From Candidatus Bathyarchaeota archaeon (GTDB lineage: Archaea; Thermoproteota; CALKCG01; B24; DRYS01), in contig JAGTQC010000007.1 in the NCBI GenBank assembly GCA_018396535.1, forward strand, positions 598 to 64,597: a stretch of DNA of 64,000 nt, read 5' to 3'. A program made the translations under genes and the position numbers. Below the pieces are notes generated by a model that did not search any database, was not told where the DNA came from, and saw only the letters and a program-made list of their open reading frames with translations. This document shows positions 5,421 to 57,357 of this stretch, piece by piece (position 1 is the first letter of the stretch; the number at the start of each line of letters is the position of its first letter).

Positions 5421-8126
5421 ATGAATAGCATCTATGAAGTCAGATTATTCAAGGAAGAAGGGTTTAGACGTAGGAGATGCCCTTCATGTGGTAGATTCTT
5501 TTGGAGTCTAGATGAAGAACAGGTGTACTGCGGTGATCAACCTTGCGTAGAATATAGCTTTATAGGAAACCCTGTGACTAGTGTTAGGTATAGGCTTGAG
5601 GATCTACGTGAAGCATTCCTATCGTTCTTTGAAAGGAATGGTCATAAAAGGGTTAAGAGGTATCCTGTCGTAGCTAGGTGGAGGGAGGATGTATACCTAG
5701 TTGGAGCATCGATATATGCGTTCCAGCCATGGGTTACTGAAGGCATAGCTCCACCACCTGAGAATCCTCTAACTATAAGTCAACCATGTATAAGGCTAAC
5801 AGATCTACCAAAGGTTGGACGTACAGGTAGGCATCTAACTAGCTTCGAGATGATGGCGCATCATGCGTTCAATACGAGGGATGAGATTGTATACTGGAAT
5901 GATGAAACTGTAGATTACTGTTACAGATTCTATAGGGATGTATTAAAGATACCGGTTGAACATATAACCTTCATAGAAGATTGGTGGTCTGGTGGGGGTA
6001 ATGCTGGTGAAGATTTTGAAGTGGTTATAGGTGGAGCTGAAGTCGCCACCCTAGTATTTATGCATTATAGAGATAGAGATGGTGTTTTAGATGAGATGCC
6101 TGTGAAAGTTGTAGATACAGGCTACGGTTTAGAGAGGAATTTATGGATATGTTTAGGCACTCCTACCATATACGATGCAGTACATAGAGAGTTCATAAAT
6201 AAGATCATAATGGAAGCAGGTATACCTAGGATAGATGAAGATATACTTGTAGAAGTATCGAAAGCTTCGGGTAGAATGGAGAGTATAGCTGATTTAGAAT
6301 ATCAAGTTGCGAGTAGAGTTGGGCTATCCGTAGATGAGCTTCGACGAATTATGAAGCCATACAATGCCATATACGCTCTTTCCGATCATACATATACTAT
6401 AGCTTGGATGCTATGTGATGGAATAGTACCTTCTAATACAGGTGCAGGGTATTTAGCTAGACTTCTAATTAGGAGGAGTCTAAGATTTCTTAGGGAGCTT
6501 GGATTAGAGATACCGTTATCAAATCTTGTGGATCTACAAATATCACGTATAGCTAGAAGCTACCCTGAAGTCATGGATTCTAGAAGTAGCGTATTGGATA
6601 TAGTTGATGTAGAGTGTGAAAGATATCGTAGAACTATAAGCGAAGCACCTAAGATTATAGAACGTATAGTAGCGAGGAGGAGGGATAAACTCACGCTGAA
6701 CGACTTAGTAGAACTATACGATTCCTACGGTATACCTCCTGAAGTCTCTGAAGAATACTTATCTAAGCTAGGTATAGAAGTTGAGAAGGGTGATTTCTAC
6801 GCTCTACTAGCTTCTAAGCATAGTAAACCTGAGGAGGTTAAGGTTGAGGAGAAACCTATTTCAAAACTCGTAAAGGATCTACCAGCTACACGTATGCTAT
6901 ACTATGAGTATCCAGCTATGCTTACGTTTAAAGCGAGGGTTCTAAAAGCCGTGGATCGATATGTTATACTCGATTCTACATGCTTCTATCCAGAAGGTGG
7001 TGGAGCTATATCAGATATAGGTGTTATGAGATGGGAGGGGGGTGAAGCTCGTGTAGTAAACGTGGAGAAGATAGGCGATATAATAGTTCATACTGTAGAG
7101 GGGCTCCTACCGCCTATAGGTGTAGAGGTAGAGGGATACATAGATAGGGAGCGTAGGGAGCAGGTTAGGAGGCATCATACTGCTACACATATACTTATAG
7201 GAGCTGCTAGGAGACTTCTAGGTACTCATGTATGGCAGATGGGGTCGTTGAAATCCGTAGATTATGCTAGACTAGATATATCACATTACAAGAGGTTATC
7301 GTTAGATGAACTTCGATCCTTAGAGAGGATGGCTAACGAAATCGTTAGAGAGGCTAGACGTGTTAACGTATACTGGATACCTAGGGATAAGGCTGAATCC
7401 ATGTATGGATTTACACTATATCAGGGAGGTGTTTTCCCAGGTAAGATTCTGAGAGTTGTAGAGATAGAAGGGTGGGATGTAGAGGCGTGTGGAGGGATAC
7501 ATTGCGATAATACATCCGAAGTCGGATTCATAAAGATAATAGGAGCTGAGCGTATACAAGATGGTGTTGAGAGGATACACTTCGCAGCTGGTGAAGCTTC
7601 ACTTAGATATCTATGGAGTATAGAGGATACCATTAGGGATCTATCCAATATGCTCTCAGCCCCCGTTGATAAACTAGTGCTCACAGTCGGTAACCTACTA
7701 GAGGAAGTTAAGAGTCTACGTAAGGAAGTTAGAAGGCTTAGAGAAAGGATAGCTGGATCTATAGCCGCTGGCTATAGAAGTATAGAGCTTGAAGGAGGTG
7801 TTAGAATTAGTATAGCATCTATGGAAGGTGATCCTGAGACTATTATCAAAGTCTGCGAGAAGATGGTTGATAGAGATCCATCACTTATCACGATATTCTT
7901 CATACCTGGAGAAATATATAGATTGGTAGTCATGGCTGGAGACGATGCTATAGCTAAAGGGTTTGATGCAGGTAGAATAGCATCTATGATAGCTAAAGCT
8001 ATGGGTGGGGTGGGCGGTGGGAAGGCTAGGCTAGGCCAGGGTGGTAAGCTTAACCCCACGGAAGTTGAGAAGCTTTTATCCAATGTAGATAGAGTCAAAT
8101 ATATCCTGAAATCGTTAGGTGGCTGA
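5421..8126 (+). CDS. alaS: alanyl-tRNA synthetase, archaeal type
   Basis: 901 aa. N-terminal zinc-ribbon-like CPSCGRFFWS, class II core, editing-domain HxxxH motif (HHTATHIL) and CGGIHC. Confidence 0.9.
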   Translation: MNSIYEVRLFKEEGFRRRRCPSCGRFFWSLDEEQVYCGDQPCVEYSFIGNPVTSVRYRLEDLREAFLSFFERNGHKRVKRYPVVARWREDVYLVGASIYAFQPWVTEGIAPPPENPLTISQPCIRLTDLPKVGRTGRHLTSFEMMAHHAFNTRDEIVYWNDETVDYCYRFYRDVLKIPVEHITFIEDWWSGGGNAGEDFEVVIGGAEVATLVFMHYRDRDGVLDEMPVKVVDTGYGLERNLWICLGTPTIYDAVHREFINKIIMEAGIPRIDEDILVEVSKASGRMESIADLEYQVASRVGLSVDELRRIMKPYNAIYALSDHTYTIAWMLCDGIVPSNTGAGYLARLLIRRSLRFLRELGLEIPLSNLVDLQISRIARSYPEVMDSRSSVLDIVDVECERYRRTISEAPKIIERIVARRRDKLTLNDLVELYDSYGIPPEVSEEYLSKLGIEVEKGDFYALLASKHSKPEEVKVEEKPISKLVKDLPATRMLYYEYPAMLTFKARVLKAVDRYVILDSTCFYPEGGGAISDIGVMRWEGGEARVVNVEKIGDIIVHTVEGLLPPIGVEVEGYIDRERREQVRRHHTATHILIGAARRLLGTHVWQMGSLKSVDYARLDISHYKRLSLDELRSLERMANEIVREARRVNVYWIPRDKAESMYGFTLYQGGVFPGKILRVVEIEGWDVEACGGIHCDNTSEVGFIKIIGAERIQDGVERIHFAAGEASLRYLWSIEDTIRDLSNMLSAPVDKLVLTVGNLLEEVKSLRKEVRRLRERIAGSIAAGYRSIELEGGVRISIASMEGDPETIIKVCEKMVDRDPSLITIFFIPGEIYRLVVMAGDDAIAKGFDAGRIASMIAKAMGGVGGGKARLGQGGKLNPTEVEKLLSNVDRVKYILKSLGG

Positions 8127-53844: not shown

Positions 53845-55134
53845 TTGACTGTATGGTTTCCAGAGATAAAGTTTCCTAGAATGGCTTTGATACGTCAGAT
53901 TATCGATTCTCCTAAACTCGATGATTTCGTATCAGAGATAAGACGTGAACTAGGTAGGATAGGATTGAGGAGTATGGTTAAGCCTGGTATGAGAATAGCT
54001 ATTACAGCTGGTAGTCGTGGAATAGCGCATTACCCCGAGATTCTAGCTACGATAGTGGATGAGGTGAGGAAGGCTGGTGGCATCCCCTTCCTAATCCCTG
54101 CTATGGGTAGTCATGGTGGAGCTACTGTTGAAGGTCAATTAGAAGTTTTAAGAGAGCTGGGTATAACCCCTGATAGGGTTGGTGCACCCATACTCGCTAC
54201 TATGGAGGTTGAGGAGGTAGGTAGGATAGATGGAGGTATACCTGTATATGTCGATAAGTATGCTGTCAAAGCTGATGGTATAATAGTTGTCGGACGTGTT
54301 AAACCTCATACAGATTTCAAGGATAGGATAGAGAGTGGGTTGATGAAGATGATGGCTATAGGTCTTGGAAAGCATAAGGGTGCTGAAACTATACATATGT
54401 ATAAATCTGAAGGCTACCATAGGCTAATACCCTTAGCAGCTAGGTTAATCATGGAGAAGCTACCGATACTATTCGGTTTAGCTATAGTCGAGAATGCCTT
54501 CCACGAGATAGCTATAGTGAAAGCTATAGAGCCTAAGGATATAGAGGAGGAGGAAGCTAAGCTTCTAGAGAAGGCTAAGGAGCTCCTCGCTAGGATACCA
54601 TTCAAAGATATCGATGTACTGATAGTCGATGAGATAGGTAAGGATATAAGCGGTGCAGGTATGGATACTAACGTGGTAGGGAGATTCTGGCTTCCAGGTG
54701 AAAGCGATCCGCGTACACCTAGCATAAAGGTTATAGTCGTCCTAGATCTAACAGAGAAGAGTCATGGAAATGCTGTAGGTATAGGATTAGCGGATATAAC
54801 TACGGAGAAGCTTGTTAGAAAGATAGATTATCGATCCACATTCATAAACTCTCTTACCAGCGGTCATACTATAACAGCTAAGATACCTATATTCCTACCG
54901 ACAGATCGAGATGCGGTAGCGGCAGCGTTATACCTATGTAGACCCATCGATCCTAGGGAAGCTAGGGTTGTAAGGATAAAGAATACCTTAGAACTCGAGA
55001 GGATATGGATATCTGAAAGCCTATACGATCTAGTCGTAAAGGATCCGATGTTTAAGGGTAGGATAGAGGTTTTGAAAGAGCCTGAGGATATGGTATTCGA
55101 TGAACATGGAGATATACTTCCGAAACACTACTAG
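53845..55134 (+). CDS. LarA-like / DUF2088 (nickel-dependent lactate racemase N-terminal domain) family protein
   Basis: 429 aa. The N-terminus RIAITAGSRGIAHYPEIL… and the overall length resemble LarA-family proteins. Catalytic residues were not verified. Confidence 0.45.
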   Translation: MTVWFPEIKFPRMALIRQIIDSPKLDDFVSEIRRELGRIGLRSMVKPGMRIAITAGSRGIAHYPEILATIVDEVRKAGGIPFLIPAMGSHGGATVEGQLEVLRELGITPDRVGAPILATMEVEEVGRIDGGIPVYVDKYAVKADGIIVVGRVKPHTDFKDRIESGLMKMMAIGLGKHKGAETIHMYKSEGYHRLIPLAARLIMEKLPILFGLAIVENAFHEIAIVKAIEPKDIEEEEAKLLEKAKELLARIPFKDIDVLIVDEIGKDISGAGMDTNVVGRFWLPGESDPRTPSIKVIVVLDLTEKSHGNAVGIGLADITTEKLVRKIDYRSTFINSLTSGHTITAKIPIFLPTDRDAVAAALYLCRPIDPREARVVRIKNTLELERIWISESLYDLVVKDPMFKGRIEVLKEPEDMVFDEHGDILPKHY

Positions 55135-55156
55135 CACAGTTCTAGAGTATACAGGA

Positions 55157-55365
55157 TGGTGGGGCCGACCGGATTCGAACCGGCGACCTGCGGGTTTACC
55201 CGTGCTCCAGCTTCATCTTCATCCCTTATGGTCTGCAAACCCGCCTATCTAGCACCCTGGAGCCCTTAACGGGGTTCCGGCATACACCTGGAACCCTGCC
55301 GTCCTGCCTCTCCAGTAACCCTACCACTAGTACTAGTGGTAGGGTTAAGGCTGGACTACGGCCCC
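55157..55365 (-). tRNA. tRNA gene with three putative introns (total ~209 nt, CCA encoded); anticodon tentatively TGC (Ala-like)
   Basis: On the minus strand: 5' GGGGCCG-TA-GTCC-AGCC…, and 3' …GCCGG-TTCGAAT-CCGGT-CGGCCCC-A-CCA. Proposed exons give a 74-nt cloverleaf: GGGGCCG TA GTCC AGCCTGGCA GGAC G GCGGG TTTGCAA CCCGC AGGTC T-arm acceptor. Intervening sequences are about 39 nt in the D-loop, about 56 nt near positions 26-30, and about 37 nt at the canonical 37/38 site. The acceptor has G3:C70 rather than the Ala identity pair G3:U70, so the identity call is tentative. Confidence 0.55.
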
Positions 55366-55426
55366 ACCGTATTAGGAGTAGATGCTTCTCTCTCTATTAA
55401 AGTTTTGATAGCCTAGGTTTTCGATA

Positions 55427-55597
55427 CTACCATAGAATCTCTTCTTCAAATCTAGCTTCTAAAGGTAGCTCTCTTAGTATTAGATCTCTTATAGCGAATC
55501 TTATCGCTTCAGCTCTATTAGGGTATAGCTTCAATTCCACTAGTCTATCTAAAGCTTTAATGTATGCTTCAGGTATGTATATACTGACAAGCTTCAT
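55427..55597 (-). CDS. ribbon-helix-helix (CopG/Arc/MetJ-like) small DNA-binding protein; below the ORF-track size cutoff
   Basis: 56 aa, hand-translated: MKLVSIYIPEAYIKALDRLVELKLYPNRAEAIRFAIRDLILRELPLEARFEEEILW. An N-terminal beta-strand followed by two helices, with the NRSEAIR-like motif typical of RHH regulators. Confidence 0.5.
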   Translation of the reverse strand: MKLVSIYIPEAYIKALDRLVELKLYPNRAEAIRFAIRDLILRELPLEARFEEEILW

Positions 55598-55781: not shown

Positions 55782-57089
55782 CTAGGATAAAACCTCTCCT
55801 AGAAGGTGGTAGGGATAAGCTTCGACTACCCTAACCCTTACTCTATCCCCTAGCTTAATACTATCATCTTTAAGTACTATAGGTTTATACCAGGCGTTCC
55901 TAGCTATCATACTTCCAGGTTTTAAACCCTCCTCATCTACTATTACCTCTCCACTCCACCCCATCCATAGACGTCTATTCCTAGATAGAGCTACCTCCCT
56001 CGCTATATCTGAAGCTATACGGCTACGCTCATCTATAACCTTCGATGGAAGAGGCTTCATCCTAGCAGCTTCAGTCATCGGTCTAGCTCCGAATTTGGAT
56101 ATATTAACTGAATCGAATTCAACCATCCTTATAAGATCTATAGTAGATTGGAAGTCTTCCTCACTCTCCGATGGGAATCCAACTATTATATCAGTAGCTA
56201 TGGATAGCTTATCTACACCACTCCTAAACCTATCCACTATCTCCAAGTACTCCTCTACCGTATACATTCTACGCATAAGCTTCAAAATCCTATTACTACC
56301 AGATTGTACTGGTAGATGTATGAATTTAAAGCATTTATCGCTGGTTAAGCATTCTATAAGATCCTCGATCATAGGCTTCACATAGTATGGGTTCATCATA
56401 CCTATCCTCACGTAGAAATCTCCTTCAAGCGATAGTATACGCTTCAGTAGATCTGTAAGCTTCAATCCTATATCTAATCCGTAGCATGCGTTATCTTGAC
56501 TCGTAATCCATATCTCTCTACAACCATCTGCTATAGCTCTCCTAGCCTCCTCGACTATCATATCGGGGGGATAGCTTACGAGTCTACCTCTAGCTAGCTT
56601 TACCTGGCAGAAGCTGCATGCACTTAAGCATCCCTGAGCCACCTCTACTATACCTACGATAGGATTACGTCTAACCCTAGGTAGACATATATTATAGCCT
56701 TCACGCTCTAGGAATACAGCCCTCCCACCTTCTAAAGCTATCCTTACAGCATCGACTATCCTAGATATAGATGATGGACCTATAAGCGAAGCTCTAGGAT
56801 TCAACCTCTCTATAACACTCCTCTCCACGACTGGCATACATCCAGCTACCACTAGTGGTTTACCCTCCTCCGTAAGCTTAGAGATCCTGTAGATCATCCT
56901 ATGCTCGGTAGGATTCTTAACTATACACGTAACTATCACGTTAACATCAGATCCCCTACTACTAGATACTATACGATAACCAGCTCTAGATAGTAGACCT
57001 TGCATAATCTCTGCTTCAGCTATACTCGAACTACACCCATAAACCTCGAAATAGACGTTAACCATAGCTATCCTATAATCAACCCCCAC
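55782..57089 (-). CDS. tRNA methylthiotransferase (MiaB/MtaB-like radical SAM MTTase with a TRAM domain)
   Basis: 435 aa. N-terminal MTTase domain, radical SAM CLSACSFCQV, C-terminal TRAM-like beta domain (…GDRVRVRVVEAYPYHLLGEV). Confidence 0.75.
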   Translation of the reverse strand: MGVDYRIAMVNVYFEVYGCSSSIAEAEIMQGLLSRAGYRIVSSSRGSDVNVIVTCIVKNPTEHRMIYRISKLTEEGKPLVVAGCMPVVERSVIERLNPRASLIGPSSISRIVDAVRIALEGGRAVFLEREGYNICLPRVRRNPIVGIVEVAQGCLSACSFCQVKLARGRLVSYPPDMIVEEARRAIADGCREIWITSQDNACYGLDIGLKLTDLLKRILSLEGDFYVRIGMMNPYYVKPMIEDLIECLTSDKCFKFIHLPVQSGSNRILKLMRRMYTVEEYLEIVDRFRSGVDKLSIATDIIVGFPSESEEDFQSTIDLIRMVEFDSVNISKFGARPMTEAARMKPLPSKVIDERSRIASDIAREVALSRNRRLWMGWSGEVIVDEEGLKPGSMIARNAWYKPIVLKDDSIKLGDRVRVRVVEAYPYHLLGEVLS

Positions 57090-57357
57090 CTATAGGCGGT
57101 ATGATAGCTAGTATATCCCCATCCCTAACACTGGTAGTCGAAGCCCTAGATCTATCTATACCTACACCGTTTAAGACTAGGTATAGCCTCTCCTCCCTAA
57201 GATTCTCCTCTAGATATCTACGAAATTCTCCGCCAAACCTCTCGCTAAGCTTCTCTACAACATCCTCTACAGTAGATCCATCACCTACCTCTATAGATAC
57301 CTCCCTAGAACCAGCTATCTCCCTAAGCCTAGCGAATAGTCTAACCTTAACCTCCAT
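57079..57357 (-). CDS. MoaD/ThiS-family ubiquitin-like sulfur-carrier protein (SAMP-like)
   Basis: 92 aa with a beta-grasp pattern and a C-terminal diglycine (…IIPPIGGG). Overlaps the MTTase start by 11 nt. Confidence 0.7.
   Translation of the reverse strand: MEVKVRLFARLREIAGSREVSIEVGDGSTVEDVVEKLSERFGGEFRRYLEENLREERLYLVLNGVGIDRSRASTTSVRDGDILAIIPPIGGG

What the first reader, a model, noticed from the sequence alone, without database searches (positions are those of the whole stretch)
55157..55365. tRNA gene with three putative introns, one carrying a 32-nt perfect palindrome
Clear acceptor, D-stem, T-arm and encoded CCA define a tRNA on the minus strand, but 5' end to CCA spans about 209 nt. 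The only exon model I can build needs three intervening sequences, located in the D-loop, around positions 26-30, and at 37/38. Multi-intron tRNAs with non-canonical positions are a hallmark of Thermoproteales.

The D-loop intron contains TAACCCTACCACTAGTACTAGTGGTAGGGTTA (55316..55347), a perfect 32-nt palindrome. A second intron has a 6-bp hairpin GGTTCC…GGAACC.

The resulting anticodon is UGC (Ala), yet the acceptor stem has G3:C70 instead of the universal Ala identity pair G3:U70. Either the exon model is wrong or this is an unusual or pseudo tRNA.
Basis: seen in the sequence. Interest (0 to 1): 0.55.

Follow-up and report, generated by a model that had tools for sequence, protein, structure and literature searches.

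The report
Three-intron tryptophan tRNA gene, Bathyarchaeia
This is a real archaeal transfer-RNA gene broken up by three short introns, but it encodes tRNA-Trp (anticodon CCA), not tRNA-Ala, and belongs to a Bathyarchaeia archaeon, so it is a well-behaved new example of a known oddity rather than a new kind of gene.

Summary
The sequence features are real: a 209-nt tRNA gene on the minus strand (55365..55157) with an encoded CCA, a perfect 32-nt palindrome and a second hairpin.

The gene is tRNA-Trp(CCA), with introns at 17/17a (55348..55310), 28/29 (55297..55266) and 37/38 (55256..55196). Each intron is bounded by a bulge-helix-bulge (BHB) splice motif, and the palindrome is the inner helix of the first motif.

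- **Orthologue evidence:** intron-poor Bathyarchaeia genes carry the predicted exon junctions uninterrupted.
- **Conservation:** two syntenic relatives, about 78% identical in the flanks, keep all three introns. Their exons are identical, their helices are intact with one compensatory change, and they have ordinary loops in place of the palindrome tip.
- **The "Ala" arm:** the supposed Ala anticodon arm lies inside intron 3. It is an antisense element that pairs with the 3' anticodon stem and places C39 at the methylation-target position of a box C'/D' motif. Intron 3 is a degenerate relative of the sR3 box C/D Trp intron.
- **Organism:** Bathyarchaeia, not Thermoproteales.

Three introns equals the published maximum. 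It is a new member of a known kind, of moderate-to-low interest. In passing I found Bathyarchaeia tRNA-Pro genes with four introns.

The parts
55157..55365 (-). Complete pre-tRNA-Trp(CCA) gene, 209 nt, from 5' G1 at 55365 to the encoded CCA ending at 55157
   Evidence: Sequence. The spliced product is called tRNA-Trp(cca), 77 nt, by ARAGORN. The gene is identical in L001, L002 and L061.
55349..55365 (-). Exon 1, GGGGCCGTAGTCCAGCC (tRNA positions 1-17)
   Evidence: Coordinates. Contiguous with exon 2 in orthologues L014 and L015.
55310..55348 (-). Intron 1, 39 nt, in the D-loop between positions 17 and 17a. BHB: CCAG[CC|U]-hairpin-CUGG[AG|A].
   Evidence: Central helix 4/4 pairs and inner helix 14+ bp. 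Same site in L132, L138 and L010.
55316..55347 (.). 32-nt perfect palindrome, which is the inner helix (h') of the intron-1 BHB. It consists of 10-bp conserved arms plus a self-complementary tip, ACTAGT repeated twice.
   Evidence: The arms are conserved with one C:G to A:U compensatory change, and the tip is replaced by 3-4-nt loops in L132 and L138.
55298..55309 (-). Exon 2, AGGCAGGACGGC (positions 17a-28)
55266..55297 (-). Intron 2, 32 nt, in the anticodon stem between positions 28 and 29. BHB: GACG[GC|A]-GGGUUCC...GGAACCC-CGUU[AA|G].
   Evidence: Central helix 4/4 pairs (one G.U) and inner helix 7 bp. Helices invariant and loop variable in L132 and L138.
55257..55265 (-). Exon 3, GGGCTCCAG (positions 29-37), carrying anticodon CCA
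   Evidence: CTCCAGA is invariant in all the Trp orthologues aligned.
55196..55256 (-). Intron 3, 61 nt, at the canonical 37/38 position. BHB: CUCC[AG|G]-GUGCU...AGCAC-GGGU[AA|A]. A degenerate relative of the sR3 box C/D Trp intron.
   Evidence: Central helix 3/4 pairs, inner helix 5 bp, outer helix 3 bp. Conserved blocks shared with 15 other Trp introns. Only 4 variable columns in the alignment with relatives that are about 22% diverged in the flanks.
55236..55244 (-). Antisense element GCGGGUUUG upstream of the D' box. It pairs with UAAACCCGC (intron 3 end plus A38-C43).
   Evidence: Inverted repeat I3. The helix appears in the MFE fold. 9-bp pairing puts C39 at the N+5 position.
55232..55235 (-). 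Box D'-like CAGA (CNGA in relatives)
55216..55222 (-). Box C'-like AUGAAGA (RAUGAMGA in relatives)
   Evidence: TGA.GA is invariant in 16 sequences. A covarying stem sits between D' and C' in relatives.
55204..55210 (-). Second antisense element CUGGAGC, complementary to G31-G37 (C34 at the target register), but with no CUGA box D after it
   Evidence: Inverted repeat I5. GGAGC is invariant. The position where box D is expected reads CGGG.
55157..55195 (-). Exon 4, positions 38-76: 3' anticodon stem, variable loop, T-arm, 3' acceptor strand, A73 and CCA
55394..55402 (-). TATA-like element CTTTAATAG, 37 nt upstream of G1 (inferred promoter)
   Evidence: AAACTTTA(A)TA is conserved at the same distance upstream of the gene in L132 and L138, although the flanks are otherwise only about 78% identical. 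Promoter function is an inference only.

Best explanation
The locus is the gene for tRNA-Trp(CCA) of a hot-spring Bathyarchaeia archaeon. It is split into four exons (17, 12, 9 and 39 nt) by three introns, at positions 17/17a (D-loop), 28/29 (anticodon stem) and 37/38 (canonical).

Inferred pathway, taken from the established archaeal route. The gene is transcribed as one 209-nt-plus precursor. [quoted passage not shown] The exons are ligated to give a 77-nt tRNA with the CCA already encoded.

The 32-nt palindrome has no separate role. It is the intron-side helix (h') that presents the two bulges of intron 1. Introns 1 and 2 lack an exon-side helix, so they are the relaxed HBh' type. Their central helices borrow D-stem bases (C12, C13; G23-C25), so the D-stem must be open when they are cut.

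Intron 3 descends from the box C/D guide intron of archaeal pre-tRNA-Trp (Rfam sR3). It keeps the internal C'/D' kink-turn motif and both antisense elements but has lost the terminal C and D boxes. It most likely still directs 2'-O-methylation of C39 before splicing; guidance of C34 is doubtful.

Shown here: the exon/intron map, the BHB geometry, orthology and conservation. Inferred: the splicing itself, the enzymes involved, and the methylation.
For: 1. **Spliced product.** Splicing at the three BHB sites gives a 77-nt sequence that ARAGORN calls tRNA-Trp(cca).

2. **BHB geometry.** Intron 1 is H4/h'14, intron 2 is H4/h'7, and intron 3 is H3/h'5/h3. The Ala-model junctions score H1-2/h'0-2.

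3. **Intron-poor orthologues.** L014 and L015 (Hecatellales, Bathyarchaeia) and about 20 metagenome contigs carry the uninterrupted sequence GTC(T/C)AGCCAGG(C/T)A(G/T)GACGACGGGCTCCAG. That is exons 1, 2 and 3 joined exactly as predicted.

4. **Alignment and cloverleaf.** The spliced product aligns to 9 other Trp tRNAs without gaps and differs from L014 at 4 of 74 positions. The cloverleaf is 97.8% paired, and 6 pairs change on both sides. Pair 27:43 is G:C in the window and A:U in most relatives.

5. **Syntenic relatives.** L132 and L138 are 77.5-79% identical in the flanks. They have the same three introns at the same sites and identical exons. All 48 modelled pairs are kept, with one compensatory C:G to A:U change in the palindrome arms. 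Of the 23 variable columns, 21 lie outside the modelled helices; the other 2 are that compensatory pair. One further paired column is a gap where L138's hairpin is shorter.

6. **Trp identity features.** Anticodon CCA, A73 and G1:C72 are all present (identity rules from established knowledge).

7. **Intron 3.** It shares the conserved blocks ACGGGTTTG-CNGA, RATGAMGA and CTGGAGC with 15 other Trp introns. The D' antisense element pairs 8-9 bp (6 bp in L059), placing C39 at N+5 in 10 of 12 sequences, and the D'-C' stem covaries. The versions with all four boxes (L120, L063) are Rfam sR3 at 62-65 bits against a threshold of 41. The Haloferax precedent is methylation of C34 and U39 (PMC7714728, PMC11408192).

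8. **Organism.** L061, titled 'Candidatus Bathyarchaeia archaeon', is 99.96% identical to the window over 2.5 kb.
Against: - There are no RNA data, so splicing, exon ligation and methylation are all inferred.
- BHB motifs of this quality are only modestly above chance in this G+C-rich 209-nt sequence: 2 strong motifs were seen, and 17/300 shuffles have at least 2.
- The conformer with all three BHBs formed is about 10 kcal/mol less stable at 37 C than the MFE fold (-90.5 vs -100.6).
- Covariation among the three-intron genes rests on three sequences and one event, so it is formally insignificant (169/500 shuffles).
- The central helix of intron 3 has a C.U mismatch.
- Intron 3 lacks box C and box D. 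It does not reach Rfam sR3 at E<=10 in the window or at E<=1 in L061. Half-guides are known to be poor methylation guides in vitro (my recollection, not checked here).
- In L132 and L138 the last base of the D' antisense element (A) does not pair with C43, so that end of the duplex is not conserved.
- I could not check whether the genome holds another tRNA-Trp gene, or which type of endonuclease it encodes.
Confidence: 0.93

Rival explanations
1. One reading: tRNA-Ala(UGC) with three introns and an aberrant G3:C70 pair. The anticodon arm would be GCGGG-UUUGCAA-CCCGC.
For: ARAGORN also accepts the hand-spliced Ala product as tRNA-Ala(tgc). The GCGGGUUUG/UAAACCCGC helix is real and appears in the MFE fold.
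Against: - None of its junctions has BHB geometry (H 1-2 of 4, h' 0-2).
- It needs an extra 4-nt deletion (GGCA) in the D-loop.
- It lacks G3:U70.
- Its product needs a 2-nt D-loop insertion relative to the orthologues and replaces the invariant CTCCAGA loop.
- Orthologues place the homologous (A/G)CGGGTTTG block inside the canonical Trp intron, next to a D' box.
Confidence: 0.01
2. Decayed or pseudo tRNA gene: a former tRNA-Trp gene disrupted by insertions and no longer producing a functional tRNA, with a second intact copy elsewhere in the genome.
For: Standard finders miss it. The all-BHB conformer is not the MFE. Some Bathyarchaeia loci do hold truncated Trp gene fragments (L073, L117, L126).
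Against: All 77 exon bases are identical in three lineages whose flanks differ by about 22%. All the BHB helices are kept, one of them through a compensatory change. The upstream TATA-like element is also conserved.
Confidence: 0.04
3. The palindrome is a DNA-level element, such as a miniature mobile element, a protein-binding site or a recombination hotspot, that happens to sit in the tRNA gene. Intron 1 would then be a recent mobile insertion, as in the intron-transposition model proposed for Thermoproteales.
For: A perfect 32-nt palindrome with no spacer is unusual, and its tip is a tandem duplication of the palindromic hexamer ACTAGT. Intron transposition between tRNA genes has been proposed for Thermoproteales (Fujishima 2010, cited in PMC4090602).
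Against: - It is unique in the 64-kb window, even with 3 mismatches allowed.
- There is no exact match in viral contigs and no BLAST match in phage genomes.
- Relatives have the intron at the same site with the same 10-bp arms (one compensatory change), but ordinary 3-4-nt non-palindromic loops. So selection acts on the RNA hairpin, and the perfect palindrome is specific to this lineage.
- BA2 has an unrelated hairpin at the same site.
Confidence: 0.05
4. Same exon/intron map, but the conserved blocks of intron 3 are not a methylation guide. They would act only as folding elements, for example by transiently holding the 3' anticodon strand to order the three splicing events, or they are a relic of sR3 with no present function.
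For: Terminal boxes C and D are absent, and the Rfam sR3 model does not detect the intron. Deleting the Haloferax Trp intron is tolerated (Joardar 2008, cited in PMC7714728 and PMC11408192). The antisense helix competes with the intron-3 BHB in the MFE fold.
Against: - Intron 3 is far more conserved than a BHB alone would require: only 4 variable columns in the three-genome alignment, against about 22% flank divergence.
- The C'/D' motif, with its covarying stem and the exact N+5 register to position 39, is kept across more than 10 Bathyarchaeia species.
- GGAGC is invariant in all 16 introns, although it plays no part in the BHB.
Confidence: 0.35

Closest known systems
Multi-intron tRNA genes of Crenarchaeota, e.g. 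Pyrobaculum islandicum tRNA-Pro(UGG) and P. calidifontis tRNA-Glu(UUC), each with three introns (Sugahara 2007/2008, as cited in PMC4090602, PMC4390854 and PMC8450103)
   Same: There are three introns in one tRNA gene: one canonical at 37/38 and two non-canonical. Each is bounded by a BHB motif, and some are of the relaxed HBh' type. Standard finders miss the gene unless they model BHB introns.
   Different: The lineage is Bathyarchaeia, not Thermoproteales. The isotype is Trp. The intron sites 17/17a and 28/29 are not among the positions listed in the review I could read (PMC4090602), though its list is open-ended. The architecture is conserved, with identical exons, across genomes about 22% diverged.
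Box C/D guide intron of archaeal pre-tRNA-Trp (Rfam sR3, RF01133; Haloferax volcanii and other Euryarchaeota; Clouet d'Orval 2001, Singh 2004)
   Same: It sits in the same gene at the same 37/38 position. It has the same two antisense elements (CGGGU.UG against 38-42, and UGGAGC against 31-36), the same target registers (39 and 34), and an internal D'/C' kink-turn motif.
   Different: Box C and box D are missing, and their place is taken by the BHB inner helix GUGCU/AGCAC. D' is CAGA and C' is AUGAAGA. The Rfam sR3 model does not detect it. The antisense element matches the unspliced intron/exon junction (UAAACCCGC).
Two-intron tRNA-Trp genes of other Bathyarchaeia (L008, L027, L028, L047, L057, L081, L090, L097 and others)
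   Same: The exons are orthologous, and the canonical intron is homologous with the same conserved blocks.
   Different: Those genes have a second intron in the variable region, after ACCCGU, and none in the D-loop or the anticodon stem. The window's gene has the reverse arrangement.

Membership tests
Archaeal tRNA gene with BHB-spliced introns | Removing the introns yields a canonical cloverleaf with conserved tRNA bases | tested here: met
   The 77-nt product is called tRNA-Trp by ARAGORN. It aligns to orthologues without gaps, and 97.8% of cloverleaf cells are paired.
Archaeal tRNA gene with BHB-spliced introns | Each intron is bounded by two 3-nt bulges separated by a 4-bp helix | tested here: met
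   Introns 1 and 2 have 4/4 pairs in the central helix. Intron 3 has 3/4, with a C.U mismatch. Taken alone, the motif count is only weakly above chance.
Archaeal tRNA gene with BHB-spliced introns | Strict hBHBh' form: both outer helices have at least 2 Watson-Crick pairs (definition in PMC7714728) | tested here: not met
   Introns 1 and 2 have an exon-side helix of only 1 and 0 bp, so they are the relaxed HBh' type. Intron 3 meets the definition (h 3 bp, h' 5 bp).
Archaeal tRNA gene with BHB-spliced introns | The genome encodes a broad-specificity splicing endonuclease (alpha2beta2 or epsilon2 type) able to cut relaxed motifs | not tested
   I did not look for an endonuclease gene, either in the window or in the rest of the genome.
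Archaeal tRNA gene with BHB-spliced introns | A mature spliced RNA, or excised (circular) introns, is observed | not testable with these tools
   No RNA data were available.
tRNA-Trp | Anticodon CCA in a 7-nt loop with U33 and a purine at 37 | tested here: met
   The loop is CUCCAGA after splicing, and it is invariant in the orthologues.
tRNA-Trp | Archaeal Trp identity features A73 and G1:C72 (established knowledge), and orthology to Trp genes | tested here: met
   A73 and G1:C72 are present. The product differs at 4 of 74 positions from the Trp gene of L014.
tRNA-Ala | G3:U70 identity pair | tested here: not met
   The pair is G3:C70.
tRNA-Ala | A UGC anticodon arm made of exon sequence with valid splice junctions | tested here: not met
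   The junctions lack BHB geometry, and the arm lies inside the conserved Trp intron.
Box C/D guide RNA (Rfam sR3, tRNA-Trp intron) | Terminal box C (RUGAUGA) and box D (CUGA) forming a kink-turn | tested here: not met
   The expected positions read UGCUAGA and CGGG. L120, L051 and L063 do have both boxes.
Box C/D guide RNA (Rfam sR3, tRNA-Trp intron) | Internal D' (CUGA-like) and C' (UGAUGA-like) boxes | tested here: met
   The window has CAGA and AUGAAGA. The GA dinucleotides are invariant, and relatives have a covarying stem between the two boxes.
Box C/D guide RNA (Rfam sR3, tRNA-Trp intron) | An antisense element of at least 8 bp directly upstream of D/D', with the target paired to the 5th base upstream | tested here: met
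   D' element: 9 bp, with C39 at N+5. D element: 7-nt complementarity with C34 in register, but no box D follows it.
Box C/D guide RNA (Rfam sR3, tRNA-Trp intron) | Scores above the Rfam gathering threshold for RF01133 (41 bits) | tested here: not met
   There is no sR3 hit at E<=10 in window 55050-55480, and none at E<=1 in the identical L061. L120 and L063 score 62-65 bits.
Thermoproteales origin | The source organism belongs to the order Thermoproteales | tested here: not met
   L061 is 99.96% identical to the window over 2.5 kb and is titled Candidatus Bathyarchaeia archaeon. The nearest orthologues are Hecatellales and other Bathyarchaeia.

The most novel reading that the evidence does not exclude
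Bathyarchaeia may be a second, so far undescribed, hot spot of tRNA-gene fragmentation alongside Thermoproteales. Its multi-intron architectures are conserved: the three-intron Trp gene here is kept across about 22% genome divergence. In tRNA-Pro(GGG) of three species they reach four introns per gene, above the published ceiling of three. In the same lineage the ancestral sR3 box C/D Trp intron has been cut down to a C'/D'-only half-guide, which may still direct methylation of C39 in cis on the unspliced precursor.
Probability: 0.35. Interest if true: 0.5.

Novelty: new member of a known kind. Interest (0 to 1): 0.33.

Why it matters
- **Annotation.** ARAGORN and the Rfam tRNA model both miss this gene. 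A genome annotated with them would appear to lack tRNA-Trp, and a hand-built model can give the wrong amino acid.
- **Biology.** Heavy tRNA-gene fragmentation with relaxed BHB motifs is not confined to Thermoproteales, and a three-intron layout can be stably inherited. The locus also gives a natural example of a box C/D guide intron that has lost its terminal boxes but kept its antisense elements. That could be used to test what a half-guide can still do.
- **The palindrome and G3:C70.** Neither needs a special explanation.

Tried and rejected
1. **Relaxed BHB enumeration.** I enumerated all combinations of up to 4 relaxed BHB-like introns and passed the products to ARAGORN. ARAGORN accepted 638 of 10,557 artificial products, covering many isotypes, so the test does not discriminate and I do not rely on it.

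3. **Covariation among the three three-intron genes.** All pairs are kept, but there is only one compensatory event, which is statistically weak.

4. **A three-way covariation** between position 27, position 43 and the intron antisense base. I abandoned this because L132 and L138 have A opposite C43.

5. **Mobile-element origin of the palindrome.** There is no second copy in the window, no viral-contig match and no phage match.

6. **Rfam.** Gathering-threshold and permissive searches over the window find no tRNA or sR3 hit for this locus. The only traces are a sub-threshold tmRNA-like hit and a weak sR40 C/D hit (E = 1.7), which I do not count as evidence.

7. **Primary papers not held.** Clouet d'Orval 2001 (PMC92551) and Sugahara 2007 (PMC1852824) were unavailable, so I relied on reviews that cite them.

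8. **A chance 7-nt complementarity.** The intron-1 5' site (CCUUAAC) is complementary to the intron-2 3' site (GUUAAGG) (I6). I judged this to be chance, because it would delete exon 2 and is weakened in the relatives.

9. **Not attempted.** I did not look for the endonuclease gene, and I could not scan the whole genome for other tRNA-Trp copies or for other copies of the introns.
Full report
**What is in the sequence.** On the minus strand, 55365..55157 (209 nt) begins with GGGGCCG and ends with CGGCCCC-A-CCA. It contains a D-stem (GUCC/GGAC) and a T-arm (GCCGG-UUCGAAU-CCGGU). The T-loop motif GGTTCRAWTCC occurs only twice in the window, against 0.07 expected. The 32-nt perfect palindrome at 55316..55347 is confirmed: 16+16 nt, 100% complementary, no spacer. 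It is unique in the window. The 7-bp hairpin GGGTTCC/GGAACCC is also confirmed. ARAGORN and the Rfam tRNA model do not report the gene. Rfam gives only a sub-threshold 'tmRNA' match with exactly these ends. The precursor folds far better than shuffled controls (z = -4.8). The observation therefore stands.

**The exon model.** I read the sequence for bulge-helix-bulge (BHB) motifs: two 3-nt bulges on opposite strands, separated by a 4-bp central helix (H), with cleavage after the second base of each bulge. This gives three introns.
- Intron 1: 55348..55310 (39 nt), CCAG[CC|U]-hairpin-CUGG[AG|A].
- Intron 2: 55297..55266 (32 nt), GACG[GC|A]-GGGUUCC...GGAACCC-CGUU[AA|G].
- Intron 3: 55256..55196 (61 nt), CUCC[AG|G]-GUGCU...AGCAC-GGGU[AA|A].

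An unbiased scan of all junction pairs recovers these three. Their scores are H4/h'14, H4/h'7 and H3/h'5/h3, where h' is the intron-side helix and h the exon-side helix. Splicing gives GGGGCCGUAGUCCAGCCAGGCAGGACGGCGGGCUCCAGACCCGCAGGUCGCCGGUUCGAAUCCGGUCGGCCCCACCA. ARAGORN calls this 77-nt product tRNA-Trp(cca). In standard numbering the introns lie at 17/17a, 28/29 and 37/38.

However, none of the Ala junctions has BHB geometry (H 1-2 of 4, h' 0-2), and the model must also drop the 4 nt GGCA. Two of my own tests were not decisive. Enumerating relaxed BHB combinations gave hundreds of ARAGORN-acceptable artefacts. BHB counts are only marginally above shuffles (17/300).

[quoted passage not shown] L061, titled 'Candidatus Bathyarchaeia archaeon', carries the identical gene and is 99.96% identical to the window over 2.5 kb. 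The window also matches MAG GCA_038865955.1 at 100%.

A spliced alignment shows that L014 and L015 (Hecatellales, class Bathyarchaeia) have only the canonical intron and carry GTCTAGCCAGGCAGGACGACGGGCTCCAG uninterrupted. That is exons 1, 2 and 3 joined exactly as predicted, including the D-loop AGCCAGGCA. A metagenome scan added about 20 more single-intron genes with the same continuous sequence.

The spliced window product aligns without gaps to nine other Trp tRNAs and differs from L014 at 4 of 74 positions. The Ala product needs a 2-nt insertion and breaks the invariant CTCCAGA loop. On the cloverleaf, 97.8% of cells pair and six pairs change on both sides. Among them is 27:43, which is G:C in the window and A:U in most relatives. 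This also fixes the intron-2 junction at GGC|GGG.

**Conservation of the three-intron layout.** Two metagenome contigs, L132 and L138, are syntenic with the window but only 77.5-79% identical in the flanks. Both have introns at the same three sites, and all four exons are identical. Of the 23 variable alignment columns, 21 lie outside the modelled helices:
- the tip of the intron-1 hairpin;
- one bulge base;
- the intron-2 loop;
- in intron 3, the last antisense base, the variable second base of box D', the loop between D' and C', and the spacer after C'.

The other two variable columns are partners in one pair of the palindrome arms, C:G in the window and A:U in the relatives. All 48 modelled pairs are kept in all three genomes. 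With three sequences and one compensatory event this is formally weak (169/500 shuffles). Even so, the absence of any uncompensated helix change or any exon change at about 22% background divergence argues strongly for a functional, spliced gene and against a pseudogene.

**The palindrome.** It is the intron-side helix (h') of the intron-1 BHB. Relatives keep the 10-bp arms (TAAACCTACC/GGTAGGTTTA) but close them with ordinary loops, 3 nt (CGC) in L132 and 4 nt (GATA) in L138. The window has the self-complementary tip ACTAGTACTAGT, a tandem repeat of a palindromic hexamer, and this is what makes the whole element a perfect palindrome. BA2 (L010) has an unrelated 9-bp hairpin intron at the same D-loop site. 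I found no other copy in the window, in viral contigs or in phage genomes. Selection is therefore on an RNA hairpin, and the perfect symmetry is specific to this lineage.

**Splice-site type.** Introns 1 and 2 have essentially no exon-side helix (1 and 0 bp), so they are relaxed HBh' motifs, not the strict hBHBh' form defined in PMC7714728. Their central helices use D-stem bases (C12, C13; G23-C25). The conformer with all three BHBs formed is -90.5 kcal/mol, against -100.6 for the MFE. This implies that the D-stem is open during cleavage, or that splicing is ordered. tRNAscan-SE 2.0 handles closely spaced introns in the same way (PMC8450103). According to the review PMC4090602, relaxed motifs are cut by the heteromeric endonucleases of Crenarchaeota, Thaumarchaeota and Nanoarchaeota. 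I did not identify the enzyme of this organism.

**Intron 3 and the origin of the 'Ala' arm.** An alignment of 16 Trp canonical introns shows three conserved blocks: (A/G)CGGGU(U/C)UG followed by CNGA, then RAUGAMGA, then CUGGAGC. The TGA.GA and GGAGC bases are invariant.

Three loci (L120, L051, L063) carry all four boxes (GUGAUGA, CUGA, UGAUGA, CUGA). L120 and L063 score 62-65 bits against Rfam sR3 (RF01133, threshold 41), whose consensus contains the same two antisense blocks. This is the guide intron known from Haloferax, which directs 2'-O-methylation of C34 and U39 (PMC7714728, PMC11408192).

In the window, GCGGGUUUG (55244..55236) lies directly upstream of CAGA. It pairs 9 bp with UAAACCCGC at the junction of intron 3 and exon 4, and this places C39 opposite the fifth base upstream of D'. 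The same register holds in 10 of the 12 Bathyarchaeia-type introns. In relatives a covarying stem (CCGC/GCGG, CCAG/CUGG, CUCC/GGAG and others) joins D' to C', as expected for a kink-turn.

CUGGAGC (55210..55204) is complementary to G31-G37 with C34 in register, but no CUGA follows it; the window reads CGGG there. No box C precedes the first antisense element either. The ends of the intron form the BHB inner helix GUGCU/AGCAC instead. The sR3 model does not detect the window's intron.

I therefore file intron 3 as a degenerate relative of sR3, not a member. It probably still guides methylation of C39 (about 0.5-0.6) and much less probably C34.

**Comparison with what is known.** Three-intron archaeal tRNA genes have been known since 2007, for example P. 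islandicum tRNA-Pro and P. calidifontis tRNA-Glu (PMC4090602, PMC4390854). Three is the stated maximum (PMC8450103). My searches of the held literature found nothing on tRNA introns in Bathyarchaeota or Bathyarchaeia. The locus is thus a new member of a known kind. What is new is the lineage, the isotype, the two non-canonical sites, the conserved inheritance of the layout, and the reduced guide intron.

**Seen in passing.** tRNA-Pro(GGG) genes of three Bathyarchaeia species (L121, L082, L065) have four BHB-flanked introns, none of them canonical. Splicing restores a sequence 70-72/76 identical to the intron-free L071. This exceeds the published ceiling, and I found no report of it. BA2's Trp gene may also have four introns, but a masked NN hides one exon. 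L073, L117 and L126 hold truncated Trp gene pieces.

**Verdict.** My confidence in the tRNA-Trp three-intron model is about 0.93. Interest is moderate to low.

Noticed in passing
L121 (JBAVCK010000141), L082 (CAWIHH010000004), L065 (VBBN01000036); also L024 and L019: Bathyarchaeia tRNA-Pro(GGG) genes with four BHB-flanked introns, none at the canonical site. Central helices have 4/4 pairs (one has 3/4), and inner helices are 4-8 bp. Splicing restores a sequence 70-72/76 identical to the intron-free L071, and ARAGORN calls it Pro(ggg). L024 has three introns and L019 two, at subsets of the same sites. Published reviews give three as the maximum per archaeal tRNA gene.
   Followed up: partly
L010 (Bathyarchaeota BA2, LIHK01000055), locus 6602-6801: This tRNA-Trp gene has a D-loop intron at the same site as the window, the 5' half of a BHB at the same 28/29 site, the canonical intron, and a variable-region intron. 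That could make four introns, but the exon GGGCTCCAG is hidden by an NN mask.
   Followed up: partly
L073 (JBEKCD010000006) at about 889, 1920 and 7400; L117; L126: There are several tRNA-Trp pieces in one 8-kb locus: a 5' fragment, a full gene with a differently placed D-loop intron, and a copy lacking nt 1-17 that starts exactly at the window's intron-1 3' junction (AGGCAGG). L117 likewise lacks the first 17 nt, and L126 has only the 3' T-arm/acceptor piece. These could be split genes, integration-site duplications or pseudogenes.
   Followed up: no
L008, L027, L028, L047, L057, L059, L079, L081, L090, L097: Most Bathyarchaeia tRNA-Trp genes carry a second intron in the variable region, ACCC[GU|A]...[AA|A]GGUC, with a covarying hairpin. 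The window's gene has none there.
   Followed up: partly
window 55782..57089 (-), 55427..55597 (-) approx., 57079..57357 (-): The genes upstream of the tRNA on the same strand are a 56-aa ribbon-helix-helix protein, which ends about 60 nt before the tRNA, then a UPF0004 + Radical_SAM + TRAM methylthiotransferase (a tRNA-modifying enzyme family) and a ThiS-like protein. I did not examine whether they are functionally linked to the tRNA.
   Followed up: no
window 55344-55350 with 55264-55270: There is a 7-nt perfect complementarity between the 5' splice site of intron 1 (CCUUAAC) and the 3' splice site of intron 2 (GUUAAGG). It is probably chance, because using it would delete exon 2, and it drops to 6 bp in L132 and L138.
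   Followed up: partly
L059 (DATHCJ010000060) and L050 (JASHOO010000417): Contigs with archaeal-type tRNA 3' halves, in L059 a Bathyarchaeia-type two-intron tRNA-Trp, are deposited under bacterial MAG names (Limnocylindrales, Bryobacteraceae). They are probably binning contaminants.
   Followed up: no
L028 2508-2627: A 5S rRNA gene (Rfam 73.7 bits) lies about 140 nt from the tRNA-Trp gene in this Bathyarchaeia contig.
   Followed up: no
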